Assembly: GCA_029907255.1 (NCBI GenBank)
Contig: JARYMF010000007.1
Span: 37,896-101,895, forward strand
Reading direction: 5' to 3'
Origin: Armatimonadota bacterium
Lineage (GTDB): Bacteria; Armatimonadota; UBA5829; DTJY01
DNA: 64,000 bases
The first letter of the stretch is position 1; the number at the start of each line of letters is the position of its first letter. The notes under the pieces are model-generated. The model was not told where the DNA came from, made no database searches, and saw nothing but the letters and a program-made list of their open reading frames with translations. Shown piece by piece: positions 17,371 to 46,778 of the stretch. Position numbers and translations under genes: made by a program.

Positions 17371-17838
17371 ATGAGCCAGCAAGAAGAAAGAGCCCAAAAA
17401 AGCGAAGAAGTTGAACAGCCAGCTATGGAAGAGGTAATTCATGCTAATAAATCAATTGAATCACCGAAGGTTGAGTTATCCGTAGTAGAAGGAAATGCTG
17501 AGGAGGAAACCTCTTCGGGTAGTTCGGTAAGGTCGGTACGTTTTGGCCAAATTTCGCCGACTGCGAGTGTAGGCGATCAGAGTTCAATAGACCTTATACT
17601 TGATGTCAGTTTAGATTTAAGCGTGGAGCTTGGGCGAACTAGCATCCCTGTGCGTGATGTTCTTCAGCTTGGCCCAGGTTCGGTAATCGAACTTGACAAG
17701 TTAGCGGGAGAGCCGGTCGATATCATGGTAAACGGCAAGCTGATTGCAAGGGGCGAGGTTGTTGTCGTTGATGAAAACTTTGGTGTTCGAGTAACGGAAA
17801 TTGCAAGTTGCTCGGAGCGATTGCTCAAGGCTGCGTAG
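17371..17838 (+). CDS. fliN: Flagellar motor switch protein FliN
   Basis: 155 aa. C-terminal SpoA domain SIPVRDVLQLGPGSVIELDKLAGEPVDIMVNGKLIARGEVVVVDENFGVRVTEI. Confidence 0.85.
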   Translation: MSQQEERAQKSEEVEQPAMEEVIHANKSIESPKVELSVVEGNAEEETSSGSSVRSVRFGQISPTASVGDQSSIDLILDVSLDLSVELGRTSIPVRDVLQLGPGSVIELDKLAGEPVDIMVNGKLIARGEVVVVDENFGVRVTEIASCSERLLKAA

Positions 17839-20593: not shown

Positions 20594-21670
20594 ATGGCTT
20601 CACAAGACAGGACCGAACCTGCAACCCCGCGAAGGCGGGAGGAAGCAAGGCAGGAGGGCAAAGTTGCCAAAAGCATGGACGTCAATTCTGTTGTTGTCCT
20701 GCTTGCTGGGATTCTCCTCCTCAAAGTTGCCGGGCCATATATGCTAAGAGGATTGATGGCAATTGCCACGGATGCATTTTCTCATTTGCATTCTAGCGAA
20801 GTAACGATGGGCAATGTTGGAACATACTTAGCGTCATATGGAGTTCGCGGAGCGCTTATCTGTCTTCCTTTGGCGATTGGGTTAGGTGCAGTAGGCATAG
20901 CGTCTAATGTTATGCAAGTCGGCTTAAAAGTTACACCAAAGGTGCTAAATCCCGATTTGAATAGGCTCAATCTGGTGCAGGGGATTGCAAGGTTGTTTTC
21001 ATGGCGCTGCGGTGTAGAAATCATAAAGCTAGTGGCTAAAGTAAGCATTGTTGCTTGGGTGGTTTATGCTTTTTTAAAAAACCAATATCCCTTGCTTGTA
21101 AATTTGGCGGCTATGCCTCCTGTCAGCGGTTTTCTTCTTGTAGGGAGCCTCTGCTGGCAGCTTGTTTTACGAGCATGGATTGTTATGGTGGCTATAGCAA
21201 TTTTCGATTTTATCTATCAGCGCTTTCAATTCGAACAAAGCATGAAGATGACCAAACAAGAGGTTAAGGATGAGTACCGGCGTTCGGAAGGAGACCCTTA
21301 CATAAAAGCAAGGATTAGACAGCGCCAAAGGGAGATAGCTCGTGGAAGAATGTTCCTTGATGTTGCGAGGGCAGATGTAGTGATTACCAACCCAGTTCAC
21401 CTGGCAGTGGCACTAAGATACGACTCGGATGAGATGGCTGCGCCAACCGTTGTTGCCAAAGGCCAGCGGCTCATTGCTGAGAAGATCAAGGCTATCGCCG
21501 AAGCACATTGCGTTCCAATAATTGAAAACCCGCCGGTCGCAAGGTTGCTATATAAGACTGTCGAAGTTGGTCAGCAGATACCTGAAAGCTTGTATCAAGC
21601 AGTTGCTGAGATTCTAGCTTATGTATATAGAATGAGCGAGAGAACTGGTAACAGGCACGCGGCTGCCTAA
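20594..21670 (+). CDS. flhB: Flagellar export switch protein FlhB
   Basis: 358 aa. The NPVH autocleavage motif is present (ADVVITNPVHLAVAL). Confidence 0.92.
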   Translation: MASQDRTEPATPRRREEARQEGKVAKSMDVNSVVVLLAGILLLKVAGPYMLRGLMAIATDAFSHLHSSEVTMGNVGTYLASYGVRGALICLPLAIGLGAVGIASNVMQVGLKVTPKVLNPDLNRLNLVQGIARLFSWRCGVEIIKLVAKVSIVAWVVYAFLKNQYPLLVNLAAMPPVSGFLLVGSLCWQLVLRAWIVMVAIAIFDFIYQRFQFEQSMKMTKQEVKDEYRRSEGDPYIKARIRQRQREIARGRMFLDVARADVVITNPVHLAVALRYDSDEMAAPTVVAKGQRLIAEKIKAIAEAHCVPIIENPPVARLLYKTVEVGQQIPESLYQAVAEILAYVYRMSERTGNRHAAA

Positions 21671-21737: not shown

Positions 21738-23828
21738 ATGGCAACAGTTATAGCACCTCGGAAGCCATTAGGGCTTCAAACAATAACCAAATATAGCGAT
21801 TATCTCGTTGCTTTTACTGCTGTCATCGTCGTGGGGATGTTGATAATGCCAATTCCTGCGTGGTTGCTCGACGTCCTCCTAACACTAAATATTGCAATGG
21901 CGATGACCGTTTTGCTGGCAACAATCTATACCCCACAGCCGCTTGAGTTTGCTTCTTTTCCGTCTATGCTTTTGGTTACTACGCTTTTCCGACTTGCCCT
22001 TAACATTTCAGCAACAAGACTAGTACTCCTTAGCGGTTCTGCTGGAGCACTCATTTCGGCATTTGGTACGGTTGTTGTCGGCGGTAACTACGTTGTCGGT
22101 GTCGTAATTTTTATTATTCTTGTAATTATCCAATTCATAGTCATAACCAACGGCACAGGTCGAGTTGCTGAGGTTGCCGCAAGGTTTACGCTAGATGCAA
22201 TGCCAGGGAAGCAAATGGCTATTGATGCGGACCTCAATGCAGGCATTATTGATGAAGAGGAAGCTCAAGCCCGCCGAAAAGCGGTAGCACGAGAGGCTGA
22301 CTTTTATGGTGCCATGGATGGTGCAAGCAAGTTTGTTCGCGGCGATGCTCTTGCCGCGGTTGTCATGATTATAATCAACATCCTTGGCGGAATCATGATT
22401 GGCGTACTTCAACGGCATATGAACTTTATAACCGCTCTCCAAAACTATACGCTGTTGACAATTGGTGTGGGTCTTGTTACGCAAATACCTTCTTTGCTAG
22501 TGTCGACTGCGACGGGCTTAATGGTTACAAAGGTATCATCAGAAAGCAATTTGGGTAGCGAATTAACTTCGCAAATGCTTGGCCAGCCAAAAGCAGTTTG
22601 GATTACATCGGGAATATGCGCAATACTCGCATTAATTCCCGGACTTCCAAAAATGCCATTTATTCTTGCTGGTCTATTTGGAATTGGGCTGGCATTCTTA
22701 ATCAAGGGGCAAGCGCAACCTCGTACTGAGGAGCAGAAGGAAATCAAAACTCCCAAGCCTCCTGAATCCATGACCGATTTGCTTGCGGTTGATCCTATTG
22801 AGGTTGAGCTAGGATATGGTCTAATACCGCTAGCTGATCCAAAGCAAGGTGGCGACCTCCTAGATAGAATTACTGCAGTACGAAGGCAGGCAGCGCTCGA
22901 ACTTGGTCTTCTTGTTCCTGCAATTAGAGTTAGAGATAATATGCAGCTTAAACCGAACGCTTACTCAGTTAAGCTTCGCGGTATCGAGATTGGCACAGGC
23001 GAAGTATATTCGGGCCAGTTGTTAGCTATGAACCCAGGGACGGCGACTGCTGAGCTCCAAGGTATAGAAACTGTTGAACCTGCCTTCGGACTTCCGGCGA
23101 TTTGGATCTCTGAACTCCAACAGACAGAAGCTGAGATGGCCGGCTATACGGTTGTTGATCCACTAACCGTTATGATTACACACCTAAGTGAACTTATTAA
23201 GAAACATGCAGCAGAAATTTTAACGCGACAAGACACGCAGACGCTAATAGATACTGTTAAGGAGAAGTCACCTGCAGTAGTTGAAGAACTTGTTCCAAAT
23301 CTTCTTGGCATCGGTGACATCCAGAAGGTCCTCCAAAACTTGCTATCAGAGCGGGTTTCAATCCGAGATCTGGGTGTCATTTTAGAAGCGCTAGCCGATG
23401 GCGCACGGCTTACAAAAGATACCGACTTGTTGACTGAGTATGTGCGCCAGGCTCTATGCAGGCAAATTAGCAAACAATATCAGTCACCAGAAGGCTATAT
23501 TCATGTAATTACCCTTGACCCGGCTGTCGAACAGATACTTGCAGAAGGTATTCGGCAGACGGATACGGGTTACCAATTGGTTCTGGAGCCCCGAATTGCT
23601 CAGCGAATTCTTGAGGAGACTCGGAACCAAGCAGAGCGAATGGCAGCATTAGGATATCAACCTGTCATACTCTGCTCGCCTAGGGTGAGGATTCACTTTA
23701 GGCGGCTTATTGAACGAATGGCTCCAACGCTAGCTGTTTTGTCGTTCAATGAGCTAAGTCCAGGTACCAAGCTTGAAACACAGGGAATGGTGAGCCTGGC
23801 AAATGAAAGTTCTTATGCAGTAAAGTGA
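21738..23828 (+). CDS. flhA: Flagellar export gate protein FlhA
   Basis: 696 aa. FHIPEP motifs and a large C-terminal cytoplasmic domain are present. Confidence 0.95.
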   Translation: MATVIAPRKPLGLQTITKYSDYLVAFTAVIVVGMLIMPIPAWLLDVLLTLNIAMAMTVLLATIYTPQPLEFASFPSMLLVTTLFRLALNISATRLVLLSGSAGALISAFGTVVVGGNYVVGVVIFIILVIIQFIVITNGTGRVAEVAARFTLDAMPGKQMAIDADLNAGIIDEEEAQARRKAVAREADFYGAMDGASKFVRGDALAAVVMIIINILGGIMIGVLQRHMNFITALQNYTLLTIGVGLVTQIPSLLVSTATGLMVTKVSSESNLGSELTSQMLGQPKAVWITSGICAILALIPGLPKMPFILAGLFGIGLAFLIKGQAQPRTEEQKEIKTPKPPESMTDLLAVDPIEVELGYGLIPLADPKQGGDLLDRITAVRRQAALELGLLVPAIRVRDNMQLKPNAYSVKLRGIEIGTGEVYSGQLLAMNPGTATAELQGIETVEPAFGLPAIWISELQQTEAEMAGYTVVDPLTVMITHLSELIKKHAAEILTRQDTQTLIDTVKEKSPAVVEELVPNLLGIGDIQKVLQNLLSERVSIRDLGVILEALADGARLTKDTDLLTEYVRQALCRQISKQYQSPEGYIHVITLDPAVEQILAEGIRQTDTGYQLVLEPRIAQRILEETRNQAERMAALGYQPVILCSPRVRIHFRRLIERMAPTLAVLSFNELSPGTKLETQGMVSLANESSYAVK

Positions 23829-23836
23829 GGTAGCAA

Positions 23837-24865
23837 GTGTTTTGGCGCAAGAAAACTGAAGACAGAGTGAACATCTTTTCCCTCGTGAGGGTCAACGACA
23901 GAATTCAATTGAAAGTCTATGGCCGCGCATATCTAAGTCGTGTTGAAGATATTCGAGGGCAGGAATTGTTTGTTGGCGCCCCTGTAGAGCAGAACCGAGT
24001 AAGGATGCTGTCGATAGGACGTGAGGTCACGGTTAGCTTGTTTGCAGCTCATGGACTGCAGCAATTCTCTGCCGTCGTTGTTCGCATGGAAACAGACCGA
24101 ATCCCGCTTGTTGTCTTGTCGAATTTCAAGGCGATAGGCACAGTTCAACGCAGAGAGTATGTTAGGGTGCCGCAGAAACTTCCTATACGTTATAGGCTAC
24201 TCTCAGGTCCTAAGAGTGGCGGGCCTTGGTTCAACGGAATAACAAACGACTTGAGCGGCGGCGGGGTCCAATTGACTGTAAGGCATTGTGGACTAGAGGT
24301 TGGAGATCTCTTGGAGATAGAGCTCTTTTTGCCCGGGGAGGAACCTATCAGTGCAGTTGGACAGGTTGTCCGTGCAGCACAGGGCTATTTTTCAATACTC
24401 AGCGATCAGACAATTGGCATTAAGTTTACAGAAATAAATTCGGCGGAGCGCGACCGAATTGTCCGTTATGTCTTCAAAAAGCAAGCAGAGATGCTTGATT
24501 CGCGCCGGAGTTTCGTTCGTATAAGGCAACGCGTGGAAGTTTCCTACAGACGCTCAAACAAACATTCATTTGAGAGAGGATACACTCTGGATATGAGCAC
24601 GGGTGGCTTGCGGTTGGTGGCTTTGTCAGGTGAGAGTTTCAACACAGGTGATATCCTCGACATTTGGATTGTTCTTTCCAACTCGACAATTATCGGAGCA
24701 ACCGGTGAAGTTGTCTGGGTAGGGAATGGAAAAGAAACTTCAGCTCAGGAACAGCAAATAGGTATAAAATTTACCAAGATTGATTCAGAATCAAGGACCT
24801 TGCTTGCTGATTTTCTTTCTGGCGCACGGACGGAAGATAACCAGCTGGATGATAAGGCAGCATAG
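23837..24865 (+). CDS. Tandem PilZ-domain protein (putative c-di-GMP receptor) in the position usually held by flhF/flhG
   Basis: 342 aa. Two PilZ signatures: QRREYVRVP...DLSGGGVQL and RRSFVRIRQRVEV...DMSTGGLRL. A ~100-aa N-terminal domain precedes them. Confidence 0.7.
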   Translation: MFWRKKTEDRVNIFSLVRVNDRIQLKVYGRAYLSRVEDIRGQELFVGAPVEQNRVRMLSIGREVTVSLFAAHGLQQFSAVVVRMETDRIPLVVLSNFKAIGTVQRREYVRVPQKLPIRYRLLSGPKSGGPWFNGITNDLSGGGVQLTVRHCGLEVGDLLEIELFLPGEEPISAVGQVVRAAQGYFSILSDQTIGIKFTEINSAERDRIVRYVFKKQAEMLDSRRSFVRIRQRVEVSYRRSNKHSFERGYTLDMSTGGLRLVALSGESFNTGDILDIWIVLSNSTIIGATGEVVWVGNGKETSAQEQQIGIKFTKIDSESRTLLADFLSGARTEDNQLDDKAA

Positions 24866-24877
24866 GACTGAAGAACT

Positions 24878-25099
24878 ATGGATGGATTTTATCAGTTAGT
24901 GTGCCTGCTGATATCGCTTGCAGGTTTCATGATAGTCATAGGGGTGTTGCTGATACGAGGTGAGCCCATTCTTGTCACCGCAGTTAAGGGTGTGCTGGCT
25001 TTTGTAGCGCTCAAAATTATTCTAGGTGTATTAAGCAAGCTTTTTAACGCAGTAGCCTGTTCTGAAAACACCAACGAAATAAACAGGGATAATACCTAG
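24878..25099 (+). CDS. Small two-TM membrane protein, hypothetical
   Basis: 73 aa with two hydrophobic helices. Tightly packed between the PilZ gene and fliA. Confidence 0.35.
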   Translation: MDGFYQLVCLLISLAGFMIVIGVLLIRGEPILVTAVKGVLAFVALKIILGVLSKLFNAVACSENTNEINRDNT

Positions 25100-25106
25100 A
25101 TAGACT

Positions 25107-25898
25107 TTGCGGAGGTTTGCGAACTTGCCAAAGACAGACCTTCTGTGGAAACGATACAAACAGGGTAGGGATTTAGATGCGCGAGAGCAATTGATTTTAA
25201 ACTATGCGTATCTGGCAAAGTATGTTGTTGACCGTTTGACCATTCGGCCCAGTGCGGTTATGGATTACGACGACTTGCTTGGGCATGCCGTCGTAGGGCT
25301 TATCGATGCTGTAGAGAAATTCGACCCCTCTAGAGATGTCAAATTCGAAACCTATGCCGTAACCCGAATTAGAGGGGCCGTACTTGATGCGATTAAAAGT
25401 CTTGATTGGATGCCTAGAACCATTCGTTCACTAGAGCAAGAGCTTAGACAAACGTTCGCACGCTTAGAAGCGGAACTTGGCCGTCCAGCAACTGATCAAG
25501 AGGTAGCTTCATCACTTGGAATAACTGTTGATGCTTTGAATGAACGGCTTGCGGATATAGCTCAGTCGGCGCTTCTCTCGTTTGAAGAGCTCTTATCTTT
25601 TAGAGAAGAAAATTTTGGCGAGAATGGTATCTATTCCTTAAACGATCCCTCGGACGATCCCATTTTGGCTGCCGAGTTGAATGAACGAAGCCAGCTGCTT
25701 GCTAAGGCAATTACCGACCTTCCCGAGAAAGAAAAGCTTGTGATTAGCTTATACTATAATGATGGGTTGACGCTAAAAGAGATTGCAAAAGTCCTAGGCG
25801 TTACTGAATCAAGAGTCTGCCAATTGCATTCCAAAGCGGTTGTAAGGCTACAAGGGAAATTGGCAAGACATGCTGATTTGCTTGTTGCCGCGGCATAA
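25107..25898 (+). CDS. fliA: Flagellar sigma factor FliA (sigma-28)
   Basis: Sigma-70 regions 2, 3 and 4 are present (e.g. LTLKEIAKVLGVTESRVCQLHSKAV). A TTG at 25125 with GGAGG 9 nt upstream is an alternative start. Confidence 0.9.
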   Translation: MRRFANLPKTDLLWKRYKQGRDLDAREQLILNYAYLAKYVVDRLTIRPSAVMDYDDLLGHAVVGLIDAVEKFDPSRDVKFETYAVTRIRGAVLDAIKSLDWMPRTIRSLEQELRQTFARLEAELGRPATDQEVASSLGITVDALNERLADIAQSALLSFEELLSFREENFGENGIYSLNDPSDDPILAAELNERSQLLAKAITDLPEKEKLVISLYYNDGLTLKEIAKVLGVTESRVCQLHSKAVVRLQGKLARHADLLVAAA

Positions 25899-25914
25899 CG
25901 TGGAGGTGTTTAAG

Positions 25915-26205
25915 GTGGATGTTCGTGCGTCAGATACTTCAAACCTGGCGGCTCAACAGGTTGAATTAAAGCGTGGGGAACCGGTCAGGGAACGTTTACA
26001 GGGGCAGGTTCATGATCCATTTGCAGCCCACGCCGCTTCTCAAGTCGACGGACAAGTATCACGTCCAAAATTGTCAAAGGAACTCAAGAGAGGCAAGAAA
26101 AACGAAGAACATACAAGAAACCAGTTTGCAGTAGAGCAAGAGTCCGAACAATCCAATGTGTCCGAAACAGAGATTGAACACCATGTTCTTGATGTGAGGG
26201 TATAG
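25915..26205 (+). CDS. Hypothetical acidic protein downstream of fliA
   Basis: The GTG at 25915 has GGAGG 8 nt upstream. 96 aa with an acidic C-terminus. No recognisable FlgM motif. Confidence 0.3.
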   Translation: MDVRASDTSNLAAQQVELKRGEPVRERLQGQVHDPFAAHAASQVDGQVSRPKLSKELKRGKKNEEHTRNQFAVEQESEQSNVSETEIEHHVLDVRV

Positions 26206-26211
26206 AAATAT

Positions 26212-26493
26212 ATGAGCGAAGGTTGGTTCACATTTTGTTTGGTTGCTGCCATAATTCTGTGTTCTGGGTGCGTTCTTGCAGCTGCAATTATGCGAACAGT
26301 TGCTATCCAGCGTCAACGTGAAGCACTTATAACAGATAACCTGCGAGCGCTCGAAGAGTCCACTGTCTTCTTGATAGAGCAATTGAGGTCAGAAACCGAA
26401 CGAATGATTGCAGAAGTTGAGCAACGAAGGGAAGTTCTTGCTGAATTAATCGCAGAGTTCGACAAACGGCTCTCGGTAATCGCTAGAAAATGA
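26212..26493 (+). CDS. Hypothetical membrane-anchored coiled-coil protein
   Basis: 93 aa. N-terminal TM segment FTFCLVAAIILCSGCVLAAAI followed by a heptad-rich tail. Last gene of the plus-strand block. Confidence 0.35.
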   Translation: MSEGWFTFCLVAAIILCSGCVLAAAIMRTVAIQRQREALITDNLRALEESTVFLIEQLRSETERMIAEVEQRREVLAELIAEFDKRLSVIARK

Positions 26494-26504
26494 GCAATAT
26501 TTGC

Positions 26505-26954
26505 CTAAAGCATATTATCTAGAAAGCGCGAACTTTGCATTTGGGGTTGCTTTTCGTATGTTTTAATGAGACTGTGGTGTTGTCTTAACCTTGCGAGGTT
26601 TCTTCTATATTCGCCAAGCAGCGCATGTAAAGCATCTTCACAGGCAGTTTGCTTCTCCATCAGCGATTTTAGACCATTGGATACCTGCTCTATTATTTGC
26701 TCCAAATTGGGATGCTTGGTGATGCCGTCTTGGCTCCGAGGTGGCAGTCGTTTGGCGATTGATTGGAGTTGATTTGAACACCGCTTGATTTCTTCACATA
26801 CCCGGGCTCTTTCTTCAAGTATGCTTGCAACAGAGCCGATATCCGAATTGCCAATTTTCCCCATGAGTTGCAAGGACAAATCGCACGCTCGTTGCAAATA
26901 CCGGTCGAACCTAATCCCAATTTGAATTGCTTCTTGAATAGCGTCGGTGGTCAT
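26505..26954 (-). CDS. FliT-like flagellar chaperone, putative
   Basis: 149 aa, helical. It follows fliS on the minus strand, as fliT does in Bacillus. The call rests on position only. Confidence 0.35.
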   Translation of the reverse strand: MTTDAIQEAIQIGIRFDRYLQRACDLSLQLMGKIGNSDIGSVASILEERARVCEEIKRCSNQLQSIAKRLPPRSQDGITKHPNLEQIIEQVSNGLKSLMEKQTACEDALHALLGEYRRNLARLRQHHSLIKTYEKQPQMQSSRFLDNML

Positions 26955-27361
26955 GCTGCCTTTGCCTCTAGTTTAGGCTGGCCGGAGCGTGCAAGCAATT
27001 CGGCTTCTGCCCAAGTTTGCCTAAGTTCAGAAAGAATTTGGATTACTTCTTCCAAAGCCCGTTGGTCGTCTTTTATGTTGGCATGCGTCAGACGGTCGAA
27101 TATATAGGAATATAGGCTATAAAGGTTTTCGGCAAGCTGGCGGTCAACATTCATATCAAGGCTTGACATAAGTTCTAGAACGATATTTTGCACTTTGCGT
27201 ATATTCTCGCTTTGCTGGTCCAGCCTACCTTCTTTCATCTTTTCAGCTGCCGTTTTGGCAAATCTGATGGCCGCATCGTACGCCATGAGGAGTAGTTTGC
27301 CGGGGGATGCGGTTTTGAATTGGTTTTCTACATATTGCGAGTATGGACTGTTTACTGACAT
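26951..27361 (-). CDS. fliS: Flagellin-specific chaperone FliS
   Basis: 136 aa. Motifs LLLMAYDAAIRFAKTA...NIVLELMSSLDMNVDRQLAENLYSLYSYI. Confidence 0.85.
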   Translation of the reverse strand: MSVNSPYSQYVENQFKTASPGKLLLMAYDAAIRFAKTAAEKMKEGRLDQQSENIRKVQNIVLELMSSLDMNVDRQLAENLYSLYSYIFDRLTHANIKDDQRALEEVIQILSELRQTWAEAELLARSGQPKLEAKAA

Positions 27362-30631: not shown

Positions 30632-31096
30632 TTAGGCTGCTTTGGCCAAGCAATTAGAGTGCTCTTCCTTTGGAATTTCGCCGATTACATGTTTTGTTCC
30701 ATATCGCTCATCATCAAGAACTATTTGGCGTGCATGGAACGTGCGAGCATTGATTACTATTGGCCCAAGGAGGTTGGTTGTAATTCTGCCGTTTTCCCTG
30801 TCAACCGTTACTGTGGTTAGCATTACAGCCTCAGTTGCCTCCTTGAGATCAAGTGATGCTACTTGGTCATCATTAAGAACTATTTCGTAATCGGGAAAAA
30901 AGTCAGTTGGATTGATTACAATGAATGCCACAGCAGGGTCATCCACTGCCTGAAGCCATTTGAATGGCGTATCGGTTCGATCATGCAATAACACATAGCG
31001 CGTGCATGCTGGGAAGCCAAGCATTCCATCTGGCATGTTTACAATAGAATCCTTGGAAACTTCCACAGTTCCGAATCTTGTTGTTTCAATTTTCAT
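30632..31096 (-). CDS. fliW: Flagellar assembly factor FliW
   Basis: 154 aa. MKIETTRFGTVEVSKDSIVNMPDGMLGFP. Confidence 0.85.
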   Translation of the reverse strand: MKIETTRFGTVEVSKDSIVNMPDGMLGFPACTRYVLLHDRTDTPFKWLQAVDDPAVAFIVINPTDFFPDYEIVLNDDQVASLDLKEATEAVMLTTVTVDRENGRITTNLLGPIVINARTFHARQIVLDDERYGTKHVIGEIPKEEHSNCLAKAA

Positions 31097-39090: not shown

Positions 39091-39585
39091 ATGGATATTA
39101 AGCGGCATTCTGATTACAAACCTATAAAAATTGCTTTCTTCGATGTTGACGGCGTCCTTACTGATGGAACAAAGTTCTATCACGAAGACGGCACAGTTTC
39201 TAAGCTTTTTCACGACCAAGATAGCACAGGCTTGCGAATGTTAACCCAAAATGGGGTGGAGGTCATTATCATTTCCGCCGATGAGCGCGTTAATAGAAAT
39301 TGGGCGGAACATCAAAGCCTGCCTTTCTATTGCACAGCTGACAAGGCAGAAACTGTAGCAGAGTTATTGGACAAGAAGGGATATGATGGCAAATCGGCTG
39401 CCTTCGTGGGAGATGACCTGAGGGATCTTGAAGCCATGAAGCTTGTTAGATATTCAATGGCTCCTGCAAATGCATCGCGGCAAGTTCGTCGAATAGCAAA
39501 GTTTCGGCTTCGCCGTGCTGGTGGCTCGGGTGCTGGGCGTGAGGCGGCAGAATTAATTCTGCGGATAAACCGTTTCATCTTTTAG
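39091..39585 (+). CDS. KdsC-family HAD sugar-phosphate phosphatase
   Basis: 164 aa. FFDVDGVLTDG and VGDDLRDLEAM, the C0 HAD KdsC/YrbI pattern. Confidence 0.75.
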   Translation: MDIKRHSDYKPIKIAFFDVDGVLTDGTKFYHEDGTVSKLFHDQDSTGLRMLTQNGVEVIIISADERVNRNWAEHQSLPFYCTADKAETVAELLDKKGYDGKSAAFVGDDLRDLEAMKLVRYSMAPANASRQVRRIAKFRLRRAGGSGAGREAAELILRINRFIF

Positions 39586-39651
39586 AAACGTTGCTTATTA
39601 TCGCAATTGAATGTGTGGCGTTCTAAATTTCACAAAGCAAAGGAGTAGCCG

Positions 39652-41421
39652 ATGAGAAGCGTAGTGTTGCTTGCAGCAGGAATGGGGACAAGGCTTGGTT
39701 CAATGACAGAAAAGTTGCCTAAATGCCTTATTCCCTTTAATGGCAAAACGCTTCTAGAATACACCATCGAGAAGCTCCGACGCTTTAACTTTGATAATAT
39801 CGTGGTCGTTGCTGGTTATCGCCATGACCAAGTGCGCCGAATTGTTCCGGATATCTTGGTGAACGAGGATTATGCTACTACTCAGCCTCCTTATTCCCTC
39901 CGCATTGGTCTTGAAAGAGTACCTCATGGACCTGTTCTTGTTATGGATGCAGATATTTATTTCGAGGATCGTGTGCTCGAGGAAATTCTCAAAATGGGGG
40001 ACAGGTCTTTTATTATTACCTCCACTGCCGAATCTAAGCTGGAGCCAGGCAGCCGCGTGAATGTTAAAGATGGCCGAGTCGTTCAAATTGGACGCTATAT
40101 TTCGCCGTTATTCCCCTGGCAAATCCACAGCGGGATTACTCATATTAGCTCGGCTGACTTTGATTACTACAAGTATCTTGCCAATCAGGATACGTTCCGC
40201 ACAACCGAAATGCATGTTCTTTTGAACGAATTGTGCAAGAAAAGACTAATTCTTGCAATCAATATGGAGAAAACACGGGTTGAACGAAAAACAGGGGACA
40301 TCTTTCTCGATGGAGGTTCATTTTCTGACGTATTAGTAACCGAGCAGGACAATATAATAAGGAAGGAAAGCGCGAAGGATACTGAAAGGCTAATAAACGA
40401 GATATATTATCTCCGTGACTTGCCTGAAGAACTTCGGCCTCATTTTACAGAGCTTTTGGATTACAACGTCGAAGGACCAGTTGTTTGGTATACGATGCCA
40501 CATTATCCTCAGCCTTCGCTTAAGAAGCTCATTCTTTCAGGCCAGTTTACCGCACTTGATGCAGTAGAAGTTCTTACTAGAATAGTTAAATTCCTGGTTG
40601 AAAAGGTTTATGTACTGCGTCGCATTGATGCCCCAGCAAGCTACACTGCGTCTGTGCACTTTAACAGGGTTGATGTTCGTCGTGAAATGGCTTTAAAGCA
40701 AGCCCCGATATTAAAACAGGTTTTTGGAGCAAAGAAGTTCATAATTAACGGCTTGGAGTATGAGAATCCATTTGACATAATCGAAAAGATTAGAAGCCGT
40801 GTAAAATTGGTGAGCACTCTTCAACCGCCGTATCTGTGCATGATTCACGGCGATCCACATTTCGATAACCTGCTGATTGACACGTCGCAGACGCCTTGTG
40901 GTTTCCGCTTGGTAGACCCGAAGGGTTTCTGTGCCGGAGACCCCATGTACGATATATCCAAGCTTTTCCACGATTTTCAAGGTCTTTATGACTTCATATA
41001 TGAATACATGTTTGATTTGAATTGGCAGGTGCAAGGTGATGTTTTTGAAGCCGAATTCCAAATTCACAACTGTGCTGCCCTTCGAGAGTTTCAAAAGATT
41101 AATGAATATTTTCCAACAATTGTTTCACAGTTTTTTGAGAGCGACCCAAACTGGTATTTGCGCATGAAATTCATCGAGGCAATTCATTTTAATTGCCTTC
41201 AGCCGTTTCATATTAAAGGAGATGGCATAGAGTCGAAAGCAATTGCCATGTTTCTTGTTGGCGTTCAGCAGATGAACAACTTTTGGGAAATGGTCCCACC
41301 CGACCTCAAGAAAGAAGATTTGAAGTATAAGTTGGTTAATATCAACACTATTGAGGACTTTACATACGCACGAAGCCTGTTTAAGTCGGATTTGAATAAA
41401 GCGCAAGCGAAAGCAGCTTGA
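39652..41421 (+). CDS. Bifunctional nucleotidyltransferase (LicC/RmlA-like) plus APH/choline-kinase-like kinase (LicA-like) fusion
   Basis: 589 aa. N-terminus LLAAGMGTRLG...KCLIPFNGKTLLEY. C-terminal Brenner motif HGDPHFDNLLID...RLVDP. Confidence 0.7.
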   Translation: MRSVVLLAAGMGTRLGSMTEKLPKCLIPFNGKTLLEYTIEKLRRFNFDNIVVVAGYRHDQVRRIVPDILVNEDYATTQPPYSLRIGLERVPHGPVLVMDADIYFEDRVLEEILKMGDRSFIITSTAESKLEPGSRVNVKDGRVVQIGRYISPLFPWQIHSGITHISSADFDYYKYLANQDTFRTTEMHVLLNELCKKRLILAINMEKTRVERKTGDIFLDGGSFSDVLVTEQDNIIRKESAKDTERLINEIYYLRDLPEELRPHFTELLDYNVEGPVVWYTMPHYPQPSLKKLILSGQFTALDAVEVLTRIVKFLVEKVYVLRRIDAPASYTASVHFNRVDVRREMALKQAPILKQVFGAKKFIINGLEYENPFDIIEKIRSRVKLVSTLQPPYLCMIHGDPHFDNLLIDTSQTPCGFRLVDPKGFCAGDPMYDISKLFHDFQGLYDFIYEYMFDLNWQVQGDVFEAEFQIHNCAALREFQKINEYFPTIVSQFFESDPNWYLRMKFIEAIHFNCLQPFHIKGDGIESKAIAMFLVGVQQMNNFWEMVPPDLKKEDLKYKLVNINTIEDFTYARSLFKSDLNKAQAKAA

Positions 41422-41439
41422 GAATACCAAAACGGAGAA

Positions 41440-44400
41440 GTGCGAATGGGAGAAGAAAAGGTTCTAGGAAGGCATAAGAGAAGAGTAGCTTGTTATGCGA
41501 CATTACCGTTCCAATTGCGGTCTCTCAAGCCAATTGCTGATGGATTTGAGGATTCACTTATTAGCTATAGTCATAAGGAGATAATGGATTGGCAGCCAGA
41601 TGTTATTATTACCGCTGATGTTTCTCAGCTGCCTCTTTTCCGTGAGTACTGCGATGCCCACAATGTCCTATTAATAGGTATGAGACATGGTCCAGCTACA
41701 AAATACACTTCTCCTGAAAAAGAATACTCCGTCGCAGACTATGTTTGCGCTAGCGACTGGGATGTGGACGATTTTACGAAGGCTGGCGTTAGACCGAAGC
41801 GAGGTTTCTTGCTTACCGGCAATCCTTGGGTAGACGACGTATTCAAAATTCCCGAGCGCAAACTTTGCAAGGATGCTCCTACAATTCTATTTGCTCCAAC
41901 CTATAATCCTGAGGTCAGTGCGGCTAGGTTTTTCGAAGATAAGCTAGCAAATCTTATCCACTCCGTATATCCAAGAAGTAAAATCATTATCAAACCACAT
42001 CCTGCTATTCTACAATACGACCATCCGTATGTTGTTCAACATCGTGAAATATTTCGTCGTTGGATTAGACAGTGGCTTGCTATATGCCAGGATTCAAATC
42101 TTGTTACATTAATCGATGACCCTGCAGCATCAATTAGTCAGTTCTTTCCAGATGCGGATATTTTAATTTCTGATGGCTCCTCGTTAATATTTGAGTTCAT
42201 GGTGCTAAATCGCCCAATTCTTTTGTATACGAGCCCTGAGAAAGTAGGAATATGGGAGTATGATTCAAGGGCGCTCGGCAATGCCTGGCGCGATGTGGGA
42301 ACGGAGTTCACTACGCAAGAGGAGTTCATTTTTGCTTTAAAGAACGCTTTTGTCAATCATTCCGAAATACAAAGCACAAAGCAGAAGCAGTACACGAATA
42401 TTCTTTATGGCAACTACCAAGATGGGCAATCAACAGAACGAGTAATCCAAAGCATCAGAAATCTGCCTTATCTGGATATAGCGCTTCTAACGGATAAAAA
42501 TGCTAGCCGTGTAAAAGAGTTCTACGAAGGGTTAAGCAATATTCTCAGAAATAGCACCATACATGTTCTTGAAGACATAGAACCTGAGGGAAAAGACTCT
42601 CAGCTAAATGCCTTTTTTGAGAAGAGCGATTCACAGTTTGTTATGGTGATTGATTATGACAGGGGAAAGAGGTTGCAATGTGCAGATTTCATTAGCCGTT
42701 CGCTACAAATTATGTCGCAAGACCCATCAGTTGCAGCTGCTGGCAGGTTGGTAGACGGGTGGGTTGAACGCAGTTTTGCAATTTTTGATAGAAAAAAGGT
42801 TTTGGACGTGGGAGGATTCTCCAAGTCAGATTCTGACTTATGCATGAGGCTTTTAGAGAAAGGTTGGAAAGTAATCTCTGCATGGGACGATAGACCGGTG
42901 ATTAGGTTTGAAAGTGGCTTTTATGACGAGGAACACGGCGTGCGATGGATGGCAGAAGAAGCAGTTATGCGCGTTGGATGGAGTGTGTGCGATGTTGAGA
43001 AATTCCCACCTTTATGCCTCACATTTGATGTTGTGTGTTCGAATTCCAAGCATTATCCAAACTTCCCATTTAGTCTAAAAATATACGATGGCGAAGCAAC
43101 GATTAAAGAGATTCGTTTTGACAAGTCCTATAAAAAAGAAAAAGTTGAGATTTTGCTTCCTTGTATTGAAGGGCCCCATACTCTTCGATTTATAAGCGAT
43201 GAGTCCTATGTTCCTCGCGAGATTGGCATAAACGGCGACCCCAGAAGGCTTTCAGTAATGATTAACAATGTAAAACTAAATGCACAAATCTTAAATAAAC
43301 ATATACAAACTGAATGCCCAGTTCGTTTAATTGCCTTCTACTTGCCGCAGTTTCATCCCATACCTGAAAACGATAAGTGGTGGGGAAAAGGCTTTACAGA
43401 TTGGGATAATGTTCGAAAAGCTAAACCATTATTCGAGGGACACTACCAACCACACATGCCGGCCGACCTAGGCTACTATGACCTTCGCAATCCTGAAGTT
43501 CGTGAAGCGCAAGCTGAAATGGCAAAAAAATATGGGATAGAAGGCTTTTGTTACTGGCATTATTGGTTTAATGGAAAAATGTTGCTTGAGAGACCTTTTA
43601 ATGAAGTGCTTGAGTCAGGAAAGCCTGATTTCCCCTTCTGTCTCGCATGGGCTAATGAAAATTGGACGCGAAATTGGGATGGGCACGAAAACCTAATTCT
43701 TCAGCCTCAAGAGTATGGTGGAGAGGCTGATGATTTTGCTCATTTCGAATGGTTGCTAAAGGCGTTTAGAGACCCAAGATACATTAAAGTAGACGGGAAG
43801 CCCTTATTCCTCATATACAGACCCATGGATATCCCAAATGTTGAAAACACGCTTGCATTGTGGCGGCAATTAGCTGGGAGTGCTGGGTTGCAAGGCTTGT
43901 ATGTAATCGCCATCAGAATTAGTCTCGACAAAACGGTAGACGGGTACTGGTTAAAGCAAGGTTTCGATGCCGAGCTATTATTTCAGCCATCTTTTGGAAG
44001 GCTATGGGATAAATATGGAGCGGGTGAAATCCCGGGGGTTCTTAATGAATATGGCGAAGGTGATGGCGAGCCAGGGCTTATTCTAAATTACAATGACGCA
44101 TGGCATGTAATGGCTAGCATGGAAGGCAACTGTTTGCGAACGGTAGTTCCTTCTTGGGATAACACTCCGCGTAGAAAATATGGTGCTTTCATTCTAAGAG
44201 ATTCTACGCCTAAGGCATATGGCGAGTGGCTCAAACTTGAAATTGAGCGTGTGAGCAGTAGACCTCCAGAACAGCGGATTGTCTTTATCAATGCATGGAA
44301 TGAATGGGGTGAGGGCAATCATCTGGAGCCAGATGTTCGCTTCGGGCACGGCTACCTCGAGGCGACCAAGCGAGCAATTGTTGGTGCTCAAACAGCAAGG

Positions 44401-46728
44401 CTTTATTCAATGGGTAAGTTGCACGAAGCTGTTTCGCTACTGGAAGAGCATATCATGGCAGACCAGAATGATGCTCAGGCATACAATGACCTTGGCGTCC
44501 TGTATTTCGAAAAAGGCGAAATTGAGAAAGCGCAATATTGTCTTGAGAAATCGCTTGCGCTAGATGAGACCGATGATACTGTTCGGAAAAACCTTGTGGA
44601 CCTTTATCTTGCTTGCGGGCAATCGGAAAGAGCAGCAAAGCTAACTGGCAATGCCCAAGAGGATTCTAGTTGTCCAGGCTGCAAGTCTGCCAGACCTAGG
44701 ATAATTGCAATACTTGCCGCTTACAATGAAGGCGACGTTATATACCATGTAATTCGGGATTTAATCGAGCAAGATATTGAAGTATACCTTCTAAACCATC
44801 ATTCAACAGACAATACAGTTGAAGAAGCATCAAAATGGTTGGGCAAGGGCCTTATTGGCATAGAATTGTTTCCTGAAGAGAGTGGTCTCGACATTCCAAA
44901 TGATGTGTTTGCTCTTCGCTATATTCTTATGCGCAAGGAGCAGCTTGTTCGACAATTTGGTCCCGGTTGGTACATCAATGCAGATGCCGATGAGTTCCGC
45001 GAGTCGCCTTGGCCTGGTTTGAATCTCCGTGAGGGAATCGAACGTGTAGACGCATTGGGATACAATACAATCAATTTTGCAATTTTTGATTTTAAGCCAA
45101 CTGATAATTCATTTGTGCCTGGCGATGATGTCCGCAAATACTTGACCGGTTACTCAGCACCTGCCGTTTCGTGGGACAAAATGCAGGCAAGGTGTTGGAA
45201 GTATTGGGGCCAGGATTTCAAACTTTGGCATACCGGTGGTCATCTAGTTCAATTCGAAGGCAGGCGCGTATTTCCTATCCCGTTTATCCTCAGGCATTAC
45301 CCAATTAGAAGCGAAGCACATGGAGAGACTAAGATCTTCAGCCAACGAAAAAACCGCTTTGATGAAAATGAAAAAGCCGCTAACTGGCATGTGCAGTATA
45401 ACGATATCACTCGGGAAAATAAGAGATTCCTATGGGACAAGTCTCAGCTTACCCAATACGACAGAGACGAAGTGTGCCGCCAAATCCATAAGAGATTCGC
45501 TGGTGTGGAACTATCCGAGGATAATAGCGAAATAAGGATTGCAATTGTAGTTCTAGTCCACAACCAGCTCGATGACACAAGAAAGTGCTTGGAAAGCATA
45601 AGGCGACATACAAATCTGCCGTATGAGCTTGTGGTGGTGGATAACGGCTCCACAGATGGCACGGAGCAGTATCTTGAAGAGATTAAGACCAAATGGAATT
45701 CAAAACATTGCAGGGCAATCAAAGTCATACGTCATGAGACTAATCTTGGTTATGCGGCAGGCAACAACTCAGGTATTTTGGCCTCTGAGGGTGCATATGT
45801 TGTTATTCTAAACAACGATACAGTAGTTACTCCTGGCTGGCTTGAGCGTCTGGTTAGATGTGCGGATGATGACCCACGCATTGGTATTGTTGGGCCTGTG
45901 AGCAATAATGTTTCAGGTTCTCAACAAGTCGAAAGCGTTGATTATGACCAGTCTACTCTAGAGGGGCTTGAGGAATTTGCCAAGAAGTGGGCTGCCTTGC
46001 ATGATAGGCAGATTAAACCAATAACGAGAGTTGTTGGTTTCTGTATGTTGATAAAACGTGAGGTAATCGAAACAATCGGCGGCTTTGACCCAAGATTTGG
46101 GATAGGTAACTTCGAGGATGATGATTTCTCAATTCGTGCTGCGATTGCAGGATATTATTCTGTGGTAGCGCAGGACTGTTTTATTCACCACACTGGCAGT
46201 CGAACTTTTGTTGGTCAAAAGATTAATCATGATGCACTCATGCGAAAAAATTGGGACCTTTTTAAAGCAAAGTGGGGTATACCAGCTGAGCTACCTTTAG
46301 GTATACCGTACAACATGTCGTTTCTTCTCAAGCAAGCGTTCAATCCGGAGCGCCATCGTTGCCCACTGGAAATCTCGAGCTCATCTATTGTTTGGTTTGT
46401 TGCACCAGAGTGGGATAAGCCCGAAACATGGTGTCCGGTAATTGAAGAATATTTGCGGTCAAATGTATCAAAAAAAGATGCGCTTCTTAGCATGTATGCT
46501 GGACCACGCACAGCAAGTGACTCAAGTGCGGCAGCCGAACTGGTGGCTGACTTTTTGGCAACGCTAGGTGTAGATGAGGGTCAAACTCCCGACATTGAAA
46601 TAACAGGGGAGCTTCCTAAAAACGGGAATGTGCAAATTATACTATCGAACGGCGGGTTGGACGAATTTTTGCAATTTCAGTACCCTGGCCGATGCATTCG
46701 CATAGATGAGTTGCGCAAGGCAGCGTAA
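41440..46728 (+). CDS. Giant multidomain transferase: TagB/TagF-like glycerophosphotransferase + GT-A-like + WbsX-family GT + TPR + GT2 + GT2
   Basis: 1762 aa. TagF motifs [10 protein letters not shown] and [24 protein letters not shown]. WbsX motif [28 protein letters not shown]. GT2 signatures AYNEGD..STDNT and [11 protein letters not shown]..NNDT. Confidence 0.8.
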   Translation: [1762 protein letters not shown]

Positions 46729-46778
46729 TTAGGTGTGACAAGGCAATAGTTGATCTGAGACGGAGGCGAGGTATTAAA

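What the first reader, a model, noticed from the sequence alone, without database searches (positions are those of the whole stretch)
23837..24865. Tandem-PilZ c-di-GMP receptor occupies the flhF/flhG slot directly after flhA
No FlhF SRP-GTPase or FlhG/MinD gene follows flhA. A 342-aa protein with two complete PilZ signatures (RREYVRVP...DLSGGG and RRSFVRIRQR...DMSTGG) and a ~100-aa N-terminal domain is translationally coupled 9 nt after the flhA stop, and fliA follows. This suggests c-di-GMP input built into the export-gate/sigma-28 operon. A brake or clutch like YcgR/MotI is possible, or a role in placing or numbering flagella in place of FlhF/FlhG.
Basis: partly seen in the sequence, partly recalled or inferred. 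Interest (0 to 1): 0.55.

Follow-up and report, generated by a model that had tools for sequence, protein, structure and literature searches.

The report
Three-domain c-di-GMP flagellar brake protein
The gene after flhA encodes a MotI/YcgR-type c-di-GMP flagellar brake with one extra PilZ domain; it sits in its own old, conserved place before fliA, and this lineage has lost the flhF and flhG genes that normally lie in front of it.

Summary
ORF 23837-24865 (342 aa) starts 8 nt after flhA. It encodes PilZNR + PilZ + PilZ, and both RxxxR/DxSxxG motif pairs are intact. No flhF or flhG exists anywhere in the 64-kb window.

The "flhF/flhG slot" reading does not hold.
- In related Armatimonadota contigs the orthologous three-domain gene lies in the same place, directly before a small membrane ORF and fliA. 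In those contigs flhF and flhG (or flhF alone) are still present between flhA and it.
- A two-domain orthologue holds the same position in a close relative.
- Two-domain PilZNR-PilZ genes follow flhG in Clostridia, Negativicutes and Thermotogae.

So the gene is not a substitute. flhF and flhG were deleted around it, in a clade of at least three related lineages.

The first 220 residues are a complete MotI-like module. The best PDB match is 5VX6, and the module's c-di-GMP motifs are invariant in 23/23 family members. The extra C-terminal PilZ looks like an old internal duplication. Its motifs are intact here but degenerate in about half of the family.

Most likely function: a c-di-GMP-gated inhibitor of the flagellar motor (stator clutch or brake) with a second, lineage-variable ligand site. 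This is a modest new variant of a known kind. NCBI already names the 96%-identical protein "flagellar brake protein".

The parts
23837..24865 (+). Gene for the three-domain PilZNR-PilZ-PilZ protein (342 aa, GTG start, TAG stop).
   Evidence: The 96%-identical P0001 is named 'flagellar brake protein' by NCBI.
23827..23830 (+). GAGG Shine-Dalgarno-like site. It overlaps the flhA stop codon and lies 6 nt before the GTG start.
   Evidence: Read directly from the sequence.
23891..24121 (+). PilZNR (YcgR_2) N-terminal beta-barrel domain, aa 19-95. Invariant residues N20, D21, R22, R35, P49.
   Evidence: Pfam PF12945, E 2.5e-12. Alignment A2. AF2 strands 22-105.
24146..24505 (+). First canonical PilZ domain with its C-terminal helix (aa ~104-223). 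This is the MotI-equivalent c-di-GMP site.
   Evidence: Pfam. phmmer and Foldseek matches to 5VX6 MotI cover aa 34-217. AF2.
24149..24166 (+). RRxxxR motif of PilZ-1 (R105 R106 E Y V R110).
   Evidence: R106 and R110 are invariant in 23/23 family members.
24248..24265 (+). DxSxxG motif of PilZ-1 (D138 L S G G G143).
   Evidence: D138, S140 and G143 are invariant in 23/23.
24503..24859 (+). Second canonical PilZ domain with its own C-terminal helix (aa 223-341). This is the extra domain.
   Evidence: Pfam best stretch 223-327. AF2 strands 227-315 and helix 317-341. 33% identical to PilZ-1, E 1e-16.
24500..24517 (+). RRxxxR motif of PilZ-2 (R222 R223 S F V R227).
   Evidence: Present here and in the whole flhF/flhG-less clade. 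RxxxR is kept in only 14/23 family members.
24590..24607 (+). DxSxxG motif of PilZ-2 (D252 M S T G G257).
   Evidence: Intact here. Kept in 14/23 family members.
24854..24862 (+). C-terminal Lys-Ala-Ala tail on a low-confidence (probably disordered) end.
   Evidence: 19/23 orthologues end in xAA. pLDDT is below 50 for residues 335-342.
21738..23828 (+). flhA (export gate), immediately upstream.
   Evidence: PF00771, 911 bits.
24878..25099 (+). Conserved 73-aa hydrophobic ORF between the PilZ gene and fliA.
   Evidence: No Pfam family. tblastn matches of 34-96% identity at the same position in L004-L009 and L091-L097.
25107..25898 (+). fliA (sigma-28).
   Evidence: TIGR02479 FliA_WhiG, 245 bits (cut-off 190).

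Best explanation
The gene encodes a c-di-GMP-gated inhibitor of flagellar rotation of the MotI/YcgR type. It is co-transcribed with the export apparatus genes and fliA, so every cell that builds flagella also makes the brake.

Proposed steps (all inferred unless marked):
- Residues 1-223 form a complete MotI-like module: a PilZNR barrel, an RRxxxR linker and a canonical PilZ. (Shown by homology.)
- When c-di-GMP rises, the module should bind an intercalated c-di-GMP dimer between its two barrels. It should then dock on the stator protein MotA, and/or FliG, and so uncouple or slow the motor.
- A second canonical PilZ domain is fused directly to the C-terminal helix of the first. It probably arose by an old internal duplication.
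- In this clade the second domain keeps an intact RRxxxR/DxSxxG site. It probably binds a second c-di-GMP dimer and tunes the response, for example its threshold, its cooperativity, or access to the helix surface that YcgR uses for MotA.

The gene is not a stand-in for FlhF/FlhG. It occupies its own ancestral position before fliA. This clade has deleted flhF and flhG from between flhA and the PilZ gene.
For: Domains and motifs: PilZNR plus 2x PilZ. PilZ-1 motifs are invariant in 23/23 family members.

Structure:
- The closest solved sequence is B. subtilis YpfA/MotI 5VX6, aligned over query residues 34-217.
- The AF2 model (pLDDT 82) shows three barrels and two helices.
- Foldseek best hits are MotI (E 2e-12), then MrkH, PlzD, YcgR and PlzA.

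Database picture: hundreds of ~220-aa homologues align to residues ~15-220. Only about 20 representative clusters cover all three domains.

Synteny:
- flhA-flhF-flhG-PilZ3-small ORF-fliA in L004-L007, L091, L096 and L097; the short contigs L092, L094 and L098 show the flhF-flhG-PilZ3 part.
- flhA-flhF-PilZ3 in L001-L003, L093 and L104.
- flhA-PilZ3 in the window, L008 and L090.
- A two-domain orthologue (43% identity) sits in the same slot in L102.
- Two-domain genes lie directly after flhG in Clostridia, Negativicutes and Thermotogae loci.

Operon: 8, 12 and 7 nt gaps, and no terminator-like site between the genes.

Literature:
- MotI/DgrA binds MotA on c-di-GMP binding and separates it from FliG (PMC7064775).
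- YcgR binds MotA through the RxxxR region and the PilZ C-tail helix (PMC10140304).
- An R/K just before RxxxR goes with binding of dimeric c-di-GMP (bioRxiv 10.1101/2020.02.11.943704).
Against: - No binding or motility data exist for any member of the family.
- Sequence identity to MotI is low (19%; phmmer E 0.012).
- The domain arrangement in the model is uncertain (pTM 0.53).
- The extra PilZ has lost one or both motifs in 12 of 23 family members. Its conserved role may therefore not be ligand binding.
- The gene lies almost invariably next to fliA, which would also fit a role in sigma-28 or export control.
Confidence: 0.7

Rival explanations
1. The protein replaces FlhF/FlhG. In this lineage it sets the place or number of flagella under c-di-GMP control.
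For: flhF and flhG are absent from the whole window. No FlhF from the two NCBI MAGs that carry this arrangement appears among the accession-bearing entries checked from the 120 best FlhF relatives. PilZ-2 motifs are intact throughout the flhF/flhG-less clade.
Against: - Orthologues coexist with flhF+flhG, or with flhF alone, at the same position.
- The protein has no GTPase or ATPase domain.
- Intact PilZ-2 motifs also occur in members that have flhF and flhG, for example P0010.
- Many flagellated bacteria lack FlhF/FlhG without any substitute (general knowledge).
Confidence: 0.04
2. The protein is a c-di-GMP-dependent regulator of sigma-28 (FliA) activity or of the FlhA export gate. On this reading it controls flagellar gene expression or assembly rather than rotation.
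For: In nearly every locus the gene lies just upstream of the small ORF and fliA, and downstream of flhA or flhG. The extra PilZ could provide a second partner surface.
Against: - The module is homologous to MotI, which acts on MotA.
- A three-domain paralogue lies next to flgF, away from fliA (L105).
- The protein has no DNA-binding or anti-sigma-like region.
Confidence: 0.12
3. The second PilZ is a ligand-independent adaptor or oligomerisation domain. Only the first PilZ senses c-di-GMP, so the tandem signature is a relic.
For: PilZ-2 keeps RxxxR in 14/23 members and DxSxxG in 14/23, and both in only 11/23. PilZ-1 is 23/23. Published surveys note that one domain of tandem PilZ proteins is usually non-canonical.
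Against: In the window clade both PilZ-2 motifs, including the extra upstream Arg, are conserved at 73-96% identity. The domain keeps the canonical barrel and C-terminal helix.
Confidence: 0.14

Closest known systems
MotI (DgrA/YpfA) of Bacillus subtilis, PDB 5VX6: PilZNR-PilZ molecular clutch acting on MotA
   Same: - Same N-terminal PilZNR family, followed by a canonical PilZ with the RxxxR linker and DxSxxG.
- Best sequence and fold match in the PDB.
- Two-domain homologues of this type lie in the same flhG-fliA slot in Clostridia and in a close Armatimonadota relative.
   Different: - The window protein is 342 aa, not ~217 aa. It carries a third domain, a second canonical PilZ with its own helix and motifs.
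- Only 19% identity to MotI.
- It is encoded inside the flagellar operon, next to fliA.
- The host has flagellar L- and P-ring genes (flgH, flgI), as diderm bacteria do.
YcgR of E. coli / FlgZ of Pseudomonas: PilZN-PilZ flagellar brakes
   Same: Same two-barrel logic and the same c-di-GMP motifs. Fold match to 5Y6F. YcgR's MotA-binding surface includes the PilZ C-tail helix, and that helix is present here.
   Different: The N-domain belongs to the PilZNR (PF12945) family, not PilZN (PF07317). In the window protein the C-tail helix of PilZ-1 is not free, because it runs into the second PilZ.
PilZ-PilZ tandem proteins (Bradyrhizobium Bll4394/Blr5568, Sinorhizobium SMc00999)
   Same: Two canonical PilZ domains in tandem. 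Both keep their C-terminal helices, and often both keep intact motifs (Galperin & Chou preprint). This describes residues 104-341 here.
   Different: Those proteins lack a PilZNR domain, are mainly alphaproteobacterial, and are not described in the passages read as flagellar-operon genes. A direct sequence relationship was not tested.
FlhF (SRP-type GTPase) and FlhG (MinD-type ATPase)
   Same: Only the position relative to flhA in this one clade.
   Different: No shared domain. In relatives both systems are present together.

Membership tests
MotI/YcgR-type (xPilZ-PilZ) c-di-GMP flagellar brake | N-terminal divergent PilZ-like domain of the PilZNR (PF12945) or PilZN type | tested here: met
   PF12945, 47.2 bits (cut-off 23), aa 19-95.
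MotI/YcgR-type (xPilZ-PilZ) c-di-GMP flagellar brake | Canonical PilZ directly after it, with RxxxR in the linker and [D/N]xSxxG | tested here: met
   R106/R110 and D138/S140/G143 are invariant in 23/23 family members.
MotI/YcgR-type (xPilZ-PilZ) c-di-GMP flagellar brake | Fold like the solved members (MotI, PlzD, YcgR) | tested here: met
   Foldseek: 5vx6 E 2e-12 (target TM 0.57-0.66); 2rde and 5y6f at about 1e-8 to 1e-7. The model's pLDDT is 82.
MotI/YcgR-type (xPilZ-PilZ) c-di-GMP flagellar brake | Two-domain architecture of about 210-250 aa | tested here: not met
   342 aa with a third domain. In the representative search about 20 clusters share this length and the rest are ~220 aa.
MotI/YcgR-type (xPilZ-PilZ) c-di-GMP flagellar brake | Association with flagellar genes | tested here: met
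   Lies inside the flagellar cluster in every locus examined.
MotI/YcgR-type (xPilZ-PilZ) c-di-GMP flagellar brake | Binds c-di-GMP, then binds MotA/FliG and inhibits rotation | not testable with these tools
   Needs biochemistry and genetics. Inferred only from motifs and homology.
Tandem canonical PilZ-PilZ proteins | Two canonical PilZ domains, each with a C-terminal helix and c-di-GMP motifs | tested here: met
   Two PF07238 stretches. Helices 202-223 and 317-341. Both motif pairs are intact in the window protein.
Tandem canonical PilZ-PilZ proteins | Architecture consists only of the two PilZ domains | tested here: not met
   An additional N-terminal PilZNR domain is present.
FlhF/FlhG flagellar placement and number system (functional substitute) | SRP-type GTPase or MinD-type ATPase domain | tested here: not met
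   No such Pfam or NCBIfam hit.
FlhF/FlhG flagellar placement and number system (functional substitute) | Mutually exclusive with flhF/flhG across relatives, as expected of a replacement | tested here: not met
   Co-occurs with flhF+flhG in L004-L007, L091, L092, L094 and L096-L098, and with flhF alone in L001-L003, L093 and L104.

The most novel reading that the evidence does not exclude
The added C-terminal PilZ turns a simple MotI-type clutch into a two-site, four-ligand c-di-GMP integrator.
- Occupancy of the second site would move the domain off the C-tail helix of PilZ-1, which is the MotA-binding surface in YcgR. That would give a sharp or two-threshold motor response, or let the protein switch partner between the stator and FlhA/FliA.
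- The conserved Lys-Ala-Ala tail would make the brake a ClpXP substrate, so that braking is reset by proteolysis.
Probability: 0.15. Interest if true: 0.5.

Novelty: new variant of a known kind. Interest (0 to 1): 0.3.

Why it matters
- It defines a small family, about 20 clusters at 50% identity among 1.84 billion representatives, in which a flagellar brake has gained a second canonical c-di-GMP domain.
- The binding motifs of that second domain are kept in some lineages and decaying in others. This is a natural series for asking what a second PilZ adds to a motor brake.
- The practical value is modest. The organisms are uncultured, and the core function is already implied by existing annotation.

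Tried and rejected
1. Testing for flhF elsewhere in the genome.
It returned 80 loci from other organisms and none from JAIMAU contigs, so it is inconclusive.
- An FlhF profile search of the 5.8-billion-protein set, followed by accession look-ups, found no FlhF with accessions from the two MAGs that carry this arrangement (MCL65..., MDH748...).
- Several hits carry no accession, and MAGs are incomplete. This is consistent with loss but does not prove it.

It was repeated with 9 sequences.

3. The promoter and terminator scan around the gene gave counts no higher than shuffled sequence, so no internal promoter or terminator can be claimed.

4. No tRNA or tmRNA gene lies in the window, so the C-terminal AA tails could not be compared with this organism's ssrA tag.

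5. I considered that the three-domain protein arose by fusion of two tandem two-domain paralogues, as seen in L100 and L041. In a small panel PilZ-2 matches the protein's own PilZ-1 best (56.6 bits, against 44 bits or less for the others). Internal duplication is therefore favoured, but only weakly.

6. The order of the flhG and flhF losses: an NJ tree of FlhA places the window clade with lineages that have flhF+flhG, and apart from the flhF-only clade. This suggests independent losses. The tree has no support values.

Full report
**What is in the sequence**

ORF 23837..24865 on the + strand encodes 342 aa from a GTG start. The flhA stop codon is at 23826-23828, so only 8 nt separate the genes. 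A GAGG overlapping that stop lies 6 nt before the GTG. The predicted N-terminus aligns residue for residue with the starts of all homologues, so the start is sound.

Pfam finds three domains:
- a PilZNR (YcgR_2, PF12945) domain at aa 19-95 (47 bits);
- two PilZ (PF07238) stretches (116 bits in all).

The N-terminal domain is a known family. fliA (25107..25898) does not follow directly, because a 73-aa hydrophobic ORF (24878..25099) lies between, with gaps of 12 and 7 nt.

**Surroundings**

Window 1-39000 is one large flagellar cluster.
- Plus strand: rpoN, rod genes, fliF/G/H/I/J, a lytic transglycosylase, fliK, flgD, flgE, motA, motB, fliL/M/N/O/P/Q/R, flhB, flhA, the PilZ gene, the small ORF and fliA.
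- Minus strand: fliS, fliD, flagellin, fliW, flgL, flgK, flgN, flgM, a rod-binding protein, flgI, flgH, flgA, flgG and flgF.

No ORF of at least 150 aa carries an SRP54 or MinD/ParA domain. tblastn with FlhF and FlhG from a relative finds nothing in any frame of the 64 kb. The promoter and terminator scan shows no terminator-like site between flhA, the PilZ gene and fliA, and its counts do not exceed shuffled sequence. The tight spacing points to co-transcription.

**Who has it**

The word-indexed search returned ten relatives, all ~340 aa with PilZNR + PilZ. The closest is 96% identical. It comes from an Armatimonadetes MAG (GCA_023511795.1), and NCBI names it "flagellar brake protein".

The exhaustive HMMER search of 1.84 billion representatives found 2423 hits. 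Only about 20 representative clusters are 310-360 aa or partial and cover all three domains. The rest are ~220-aa proteins that align to residues ~15-220. The three-domain form is therefore a small family inside the very large MotI/YcgR-like group.

**The decisive comparison is synteny**

| Gene order | Loci |
|---|---|
| flhA-flhF-flhG-[three-domain gene]-small ORF-fliA | L004-L007, L091, L096, L097 (L092, L094 and L098 are short contigs showing only flhF-flhG-PilZ3) |
| flhA-flhF-[gene]-small ORF-fliA (no flhG) | L001-L003, L093, L104 |
| flhA-[gene] (both absent) | the window, the 96% relative L008, and L090 (76% identical; FlhA 92%) |
| Two-domain orthologue (43% identity over residues 4-222) in the same slot, after flhG and before a 67-aa ORF and fliA | L102 |

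Further away, loci fetched with an FlhF profile show ~210-250-aa PilZNR-PilZ-like genes directly after flhG. These are in Clostridia, Negativicutes and a Thermotogaceae MAG, the last with two copies.

The gene therefore sits in its own old position. What is special in this window is a clean deletion, or a relocation, of flhF and flhG. That deletion is shared by at least three related lineages, so it is not an assembly artefact.

An NJ tree of FlhA groups the window clade with lineages that have flhF+flhG, and apart from the flhF-only clade. This hints at independent losses, but the tree has no support values.

Whether flhF exists elsewhere in these genomes could not be settled. Among the accession-bearing entries checked from the 120 best FlhF relatives in the protein database, none comes from the two NCBI MAGs with this arrangement. 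This is consistent with loss.

**Anatomy of the protein**

The AlphaFold2 model built on 23 family sequences has mean pLDDT 82 but pTM 0.53. The domains are reliable and their mutual arrangement is not. The model shows:
- a barrel at 22-105;
- a barrel at 116-200 with a helix at 202-223;
- a barrel at 227-315 with a helix at 317-341.

Foldseek against the PDB ranks B. subtilis MotI (5VX6) first (E 2e-12), followed by MrkH, PlzD/VCA0042, YcgR, PlzA and then single PilZ domains. By sequence, 5VX6 is also the only meaningful PDB hit, aligned over residues 34-217. Residues 1-223 are thus a full MotI-like unit, and residues 223-341 are an added canonical PilZ.

The two PilZ domains are 33% identical (E 1e-16). 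In a small panel PilZ-2 matches the protein's own PilZ-1 better than it matches the PilZ domains of two-domain relatives. This weakly favours an old internal duplication.

**Constraint on the two sites**

Across 23 three-domain members, both PilZ-1 motifs are present in 23/23. PilZ-2 keeps RxxxR in 14/23, DxSxxG in 14/23, and both in 11/23. In the clade without flhF/flhG (window, P0001, P0002, L090) both PilZ-2 motifs are intact. They are also intact in members that have flhF and flhG, for example P0010. There is thus no link between the state of the second site and the presence of FlhF/FlhG.

Both sites here have an Arg just before RxxxR. A published survey associates that residue with binding of dimeric c-di-GMP. 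Four ligands per protein is therefore a reasonable inference, but it is untested.

**Mechanism**

Shown:
- the domain composition, the motifs and the fold;
- orthology by conserved position;
- operon-like packing with the export genes and fliA.

Taken from the literature:
- MotI/DgrA binds MotA on c-di-GMP binding and separates it from FliG, acting as a clutch (PMC7064775).
- YcgR binds MotA through the RxxxR region and the PilZ C-tail helix, and binds FliG through its N-domain (PMC10140304).
- xPilZ-PilZ proteins bind the ligand at the interdomain linker (Galperin & Chou preprint).

Inferred:
- This protein acts the same way on the MotA/MotB stator encoded 9 kb upstream.
- The second PilZ is attached exactly at the C-tail helix, and it modulates the response.

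I put 0.7 on the brake/clutch reading. I put 0.12 on a regulatory role at FliA or FlhA, and 0.04 on substitution for FlhF/FlhG. The chance that the second PilZ binds no ligand in this protein is about 0.14. This last figure concerns only the second PilZ and is not a fourth exclusive alternative.

**Comparison with what is known**

The protein works like MotI/YcgR and meets most of their defining features. It departs from them in architecture: three domains rather than two. Its C-terminal two-thirds resemble the PilZ-PilZ proteins of alphaproteobacteria. The papers found do not describe a PilZNR-PilZ-PilZ architecture. A 2026 preprint does list PilZ-domain proteins among the widely distributed flagellar genes, and counts FlhF/FlhG among the strongly co-present genes.

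I therefore class it as a new variant of a known kind, with modest interest.

**Side observations**

The most striking concerns C-termini. Eight of 52 window genes end in Ala-Ala: FliN, FlhB, this PilZ protein, FliA, FliS, FliW and two glycosylation-island proteins. Six of the eight end in Lys-Ala-Ala, and the codons differ between genes.

In loci of this family 25 of 157 ORFs end in AA, against 15 of 802 in loci from other phyla (Fisher p 2e-11). 19 of 23 orthologues of the PilZ protein end in xAA.

A terminal Ala-Ala is the critical element of ssrA-like ClpXP degrons, although it is not sufficient by itself (PMC10862746). This may mark a lineage-specific proteolytic control of cytoplasmic flagellar proteins. 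It was not pursued further.

Noticed in passing
window 17371-17838, 20594-21670, 23837-24865, 25107-25898, 26951-27361(-), 30632-31096(-), 39652-41421, 41440-46728; also loci L001, L004, L093, L097: Strong excess of proteins ending in Ala-Ala, mostly Lys-Ala-Ala. It affects 8 of 52 window genes. In loci of this Armatimonadota family it affects 25/157 ORFs, against 15/802 in other phyla (Fisher p 2e-11). The codons differ between genes, so the signal is at protein level. The tail is conserved in 19/23 orthologues of the PilZ protein. It may be an ssrA-like ClpXP degron on cytoplasmic flagellar proteins (FliN, FlhB, FliA, FliS, FliW and the brake).
   Followed up: partly
window 24878-25099 (+): A 73-aa hydrophobic ORF with no Pfam family lies between the PilZ gene and fliA. 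It is conserved in position and sequence (34-96% identity) in all related loci. Small membrane ORFs with acidic tails occupy the flhG-fliA gap in spirochaete, Planctomycetota and Ignavibacteriota loci. It may be an undescribed flagellar component.
   Followed up: partly
loci L001-L003, L093, L104 (flhF only); window, L008, L090 (neither gene): Within one family of Armatimonadota, flhG alone or flhF+flhG have been removed cleanly from the flhA-flhF-flhG-PilZ-fliA array. An unsupported FlhA NJ tree suggests this happened more than once. An FlhF without its partner FlhG is unusual.
   Followed up: partly
L100/L101 3519-5004; L041 5503-6912; L103 834-2903; L105 6001-7050: The YcgR-like gene in the flagellar cluster is often duplicated. 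There are two tandem two-domain copies after flhG (Logan contigs, and a Thermotogaceae MAG), and two tandem three-domain copies before fliA (L103). A three-domain paralogue lies divergent from flgF (L105).
   Followed up: no
window 39091-49007 (+): A probable glycosylation island lies directly beside the flagellar cluster. It holds a HAD hydrolase, a nucleotidyltransferase-kinase fusion (589 aa), a 1762-aa protein and a 742-aa TPR-GT2 protein. The 1762-aa protein combines glycerophosphotransferase, WbsX and GT2 glycosyltransferase domains with TPR repeats. Flagellin glycosylation is a plausible role.
   Followed up: no
window 56718-59264 and 59337-61190 (+): Unusual fusions in an ABC sugar-transport locus. 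One 848-aa ORF combines a solute-binding protein (SBP_bac_1) with a permease domain (BPD_transp_1). The next ORF combines a weak GH42-like region with a permease domain.
   Followed up: no
window 801-2213 (+): rpoN (sigma-54) lies at the head of the flagellar cluster that also encodes fliA and flgM. This hints at a two-sigma flagellar hierarchy in this Armatimonadota lineage.
   Followed up: no
L004/L005 1235-1331: In the relative carrying P0004, fliL is followed directly by a 148-aa FliN-type gene. No fliM lies between them, whereas the window and L001 have a 327-aa fliM there.
   Followed up: no
window 25870-26493 (+) and 26505-26954 (-): Two small conserved ORFs follow fliA (about 96 and 93 aa; called in L008 and L009, with similar-sized ORFs after fliA in L001 and L004) and have no family assignment. 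The 149-aa ORF upstream of fliS has only a weak or faint FliT hit in the relatives.
   Followed up: no
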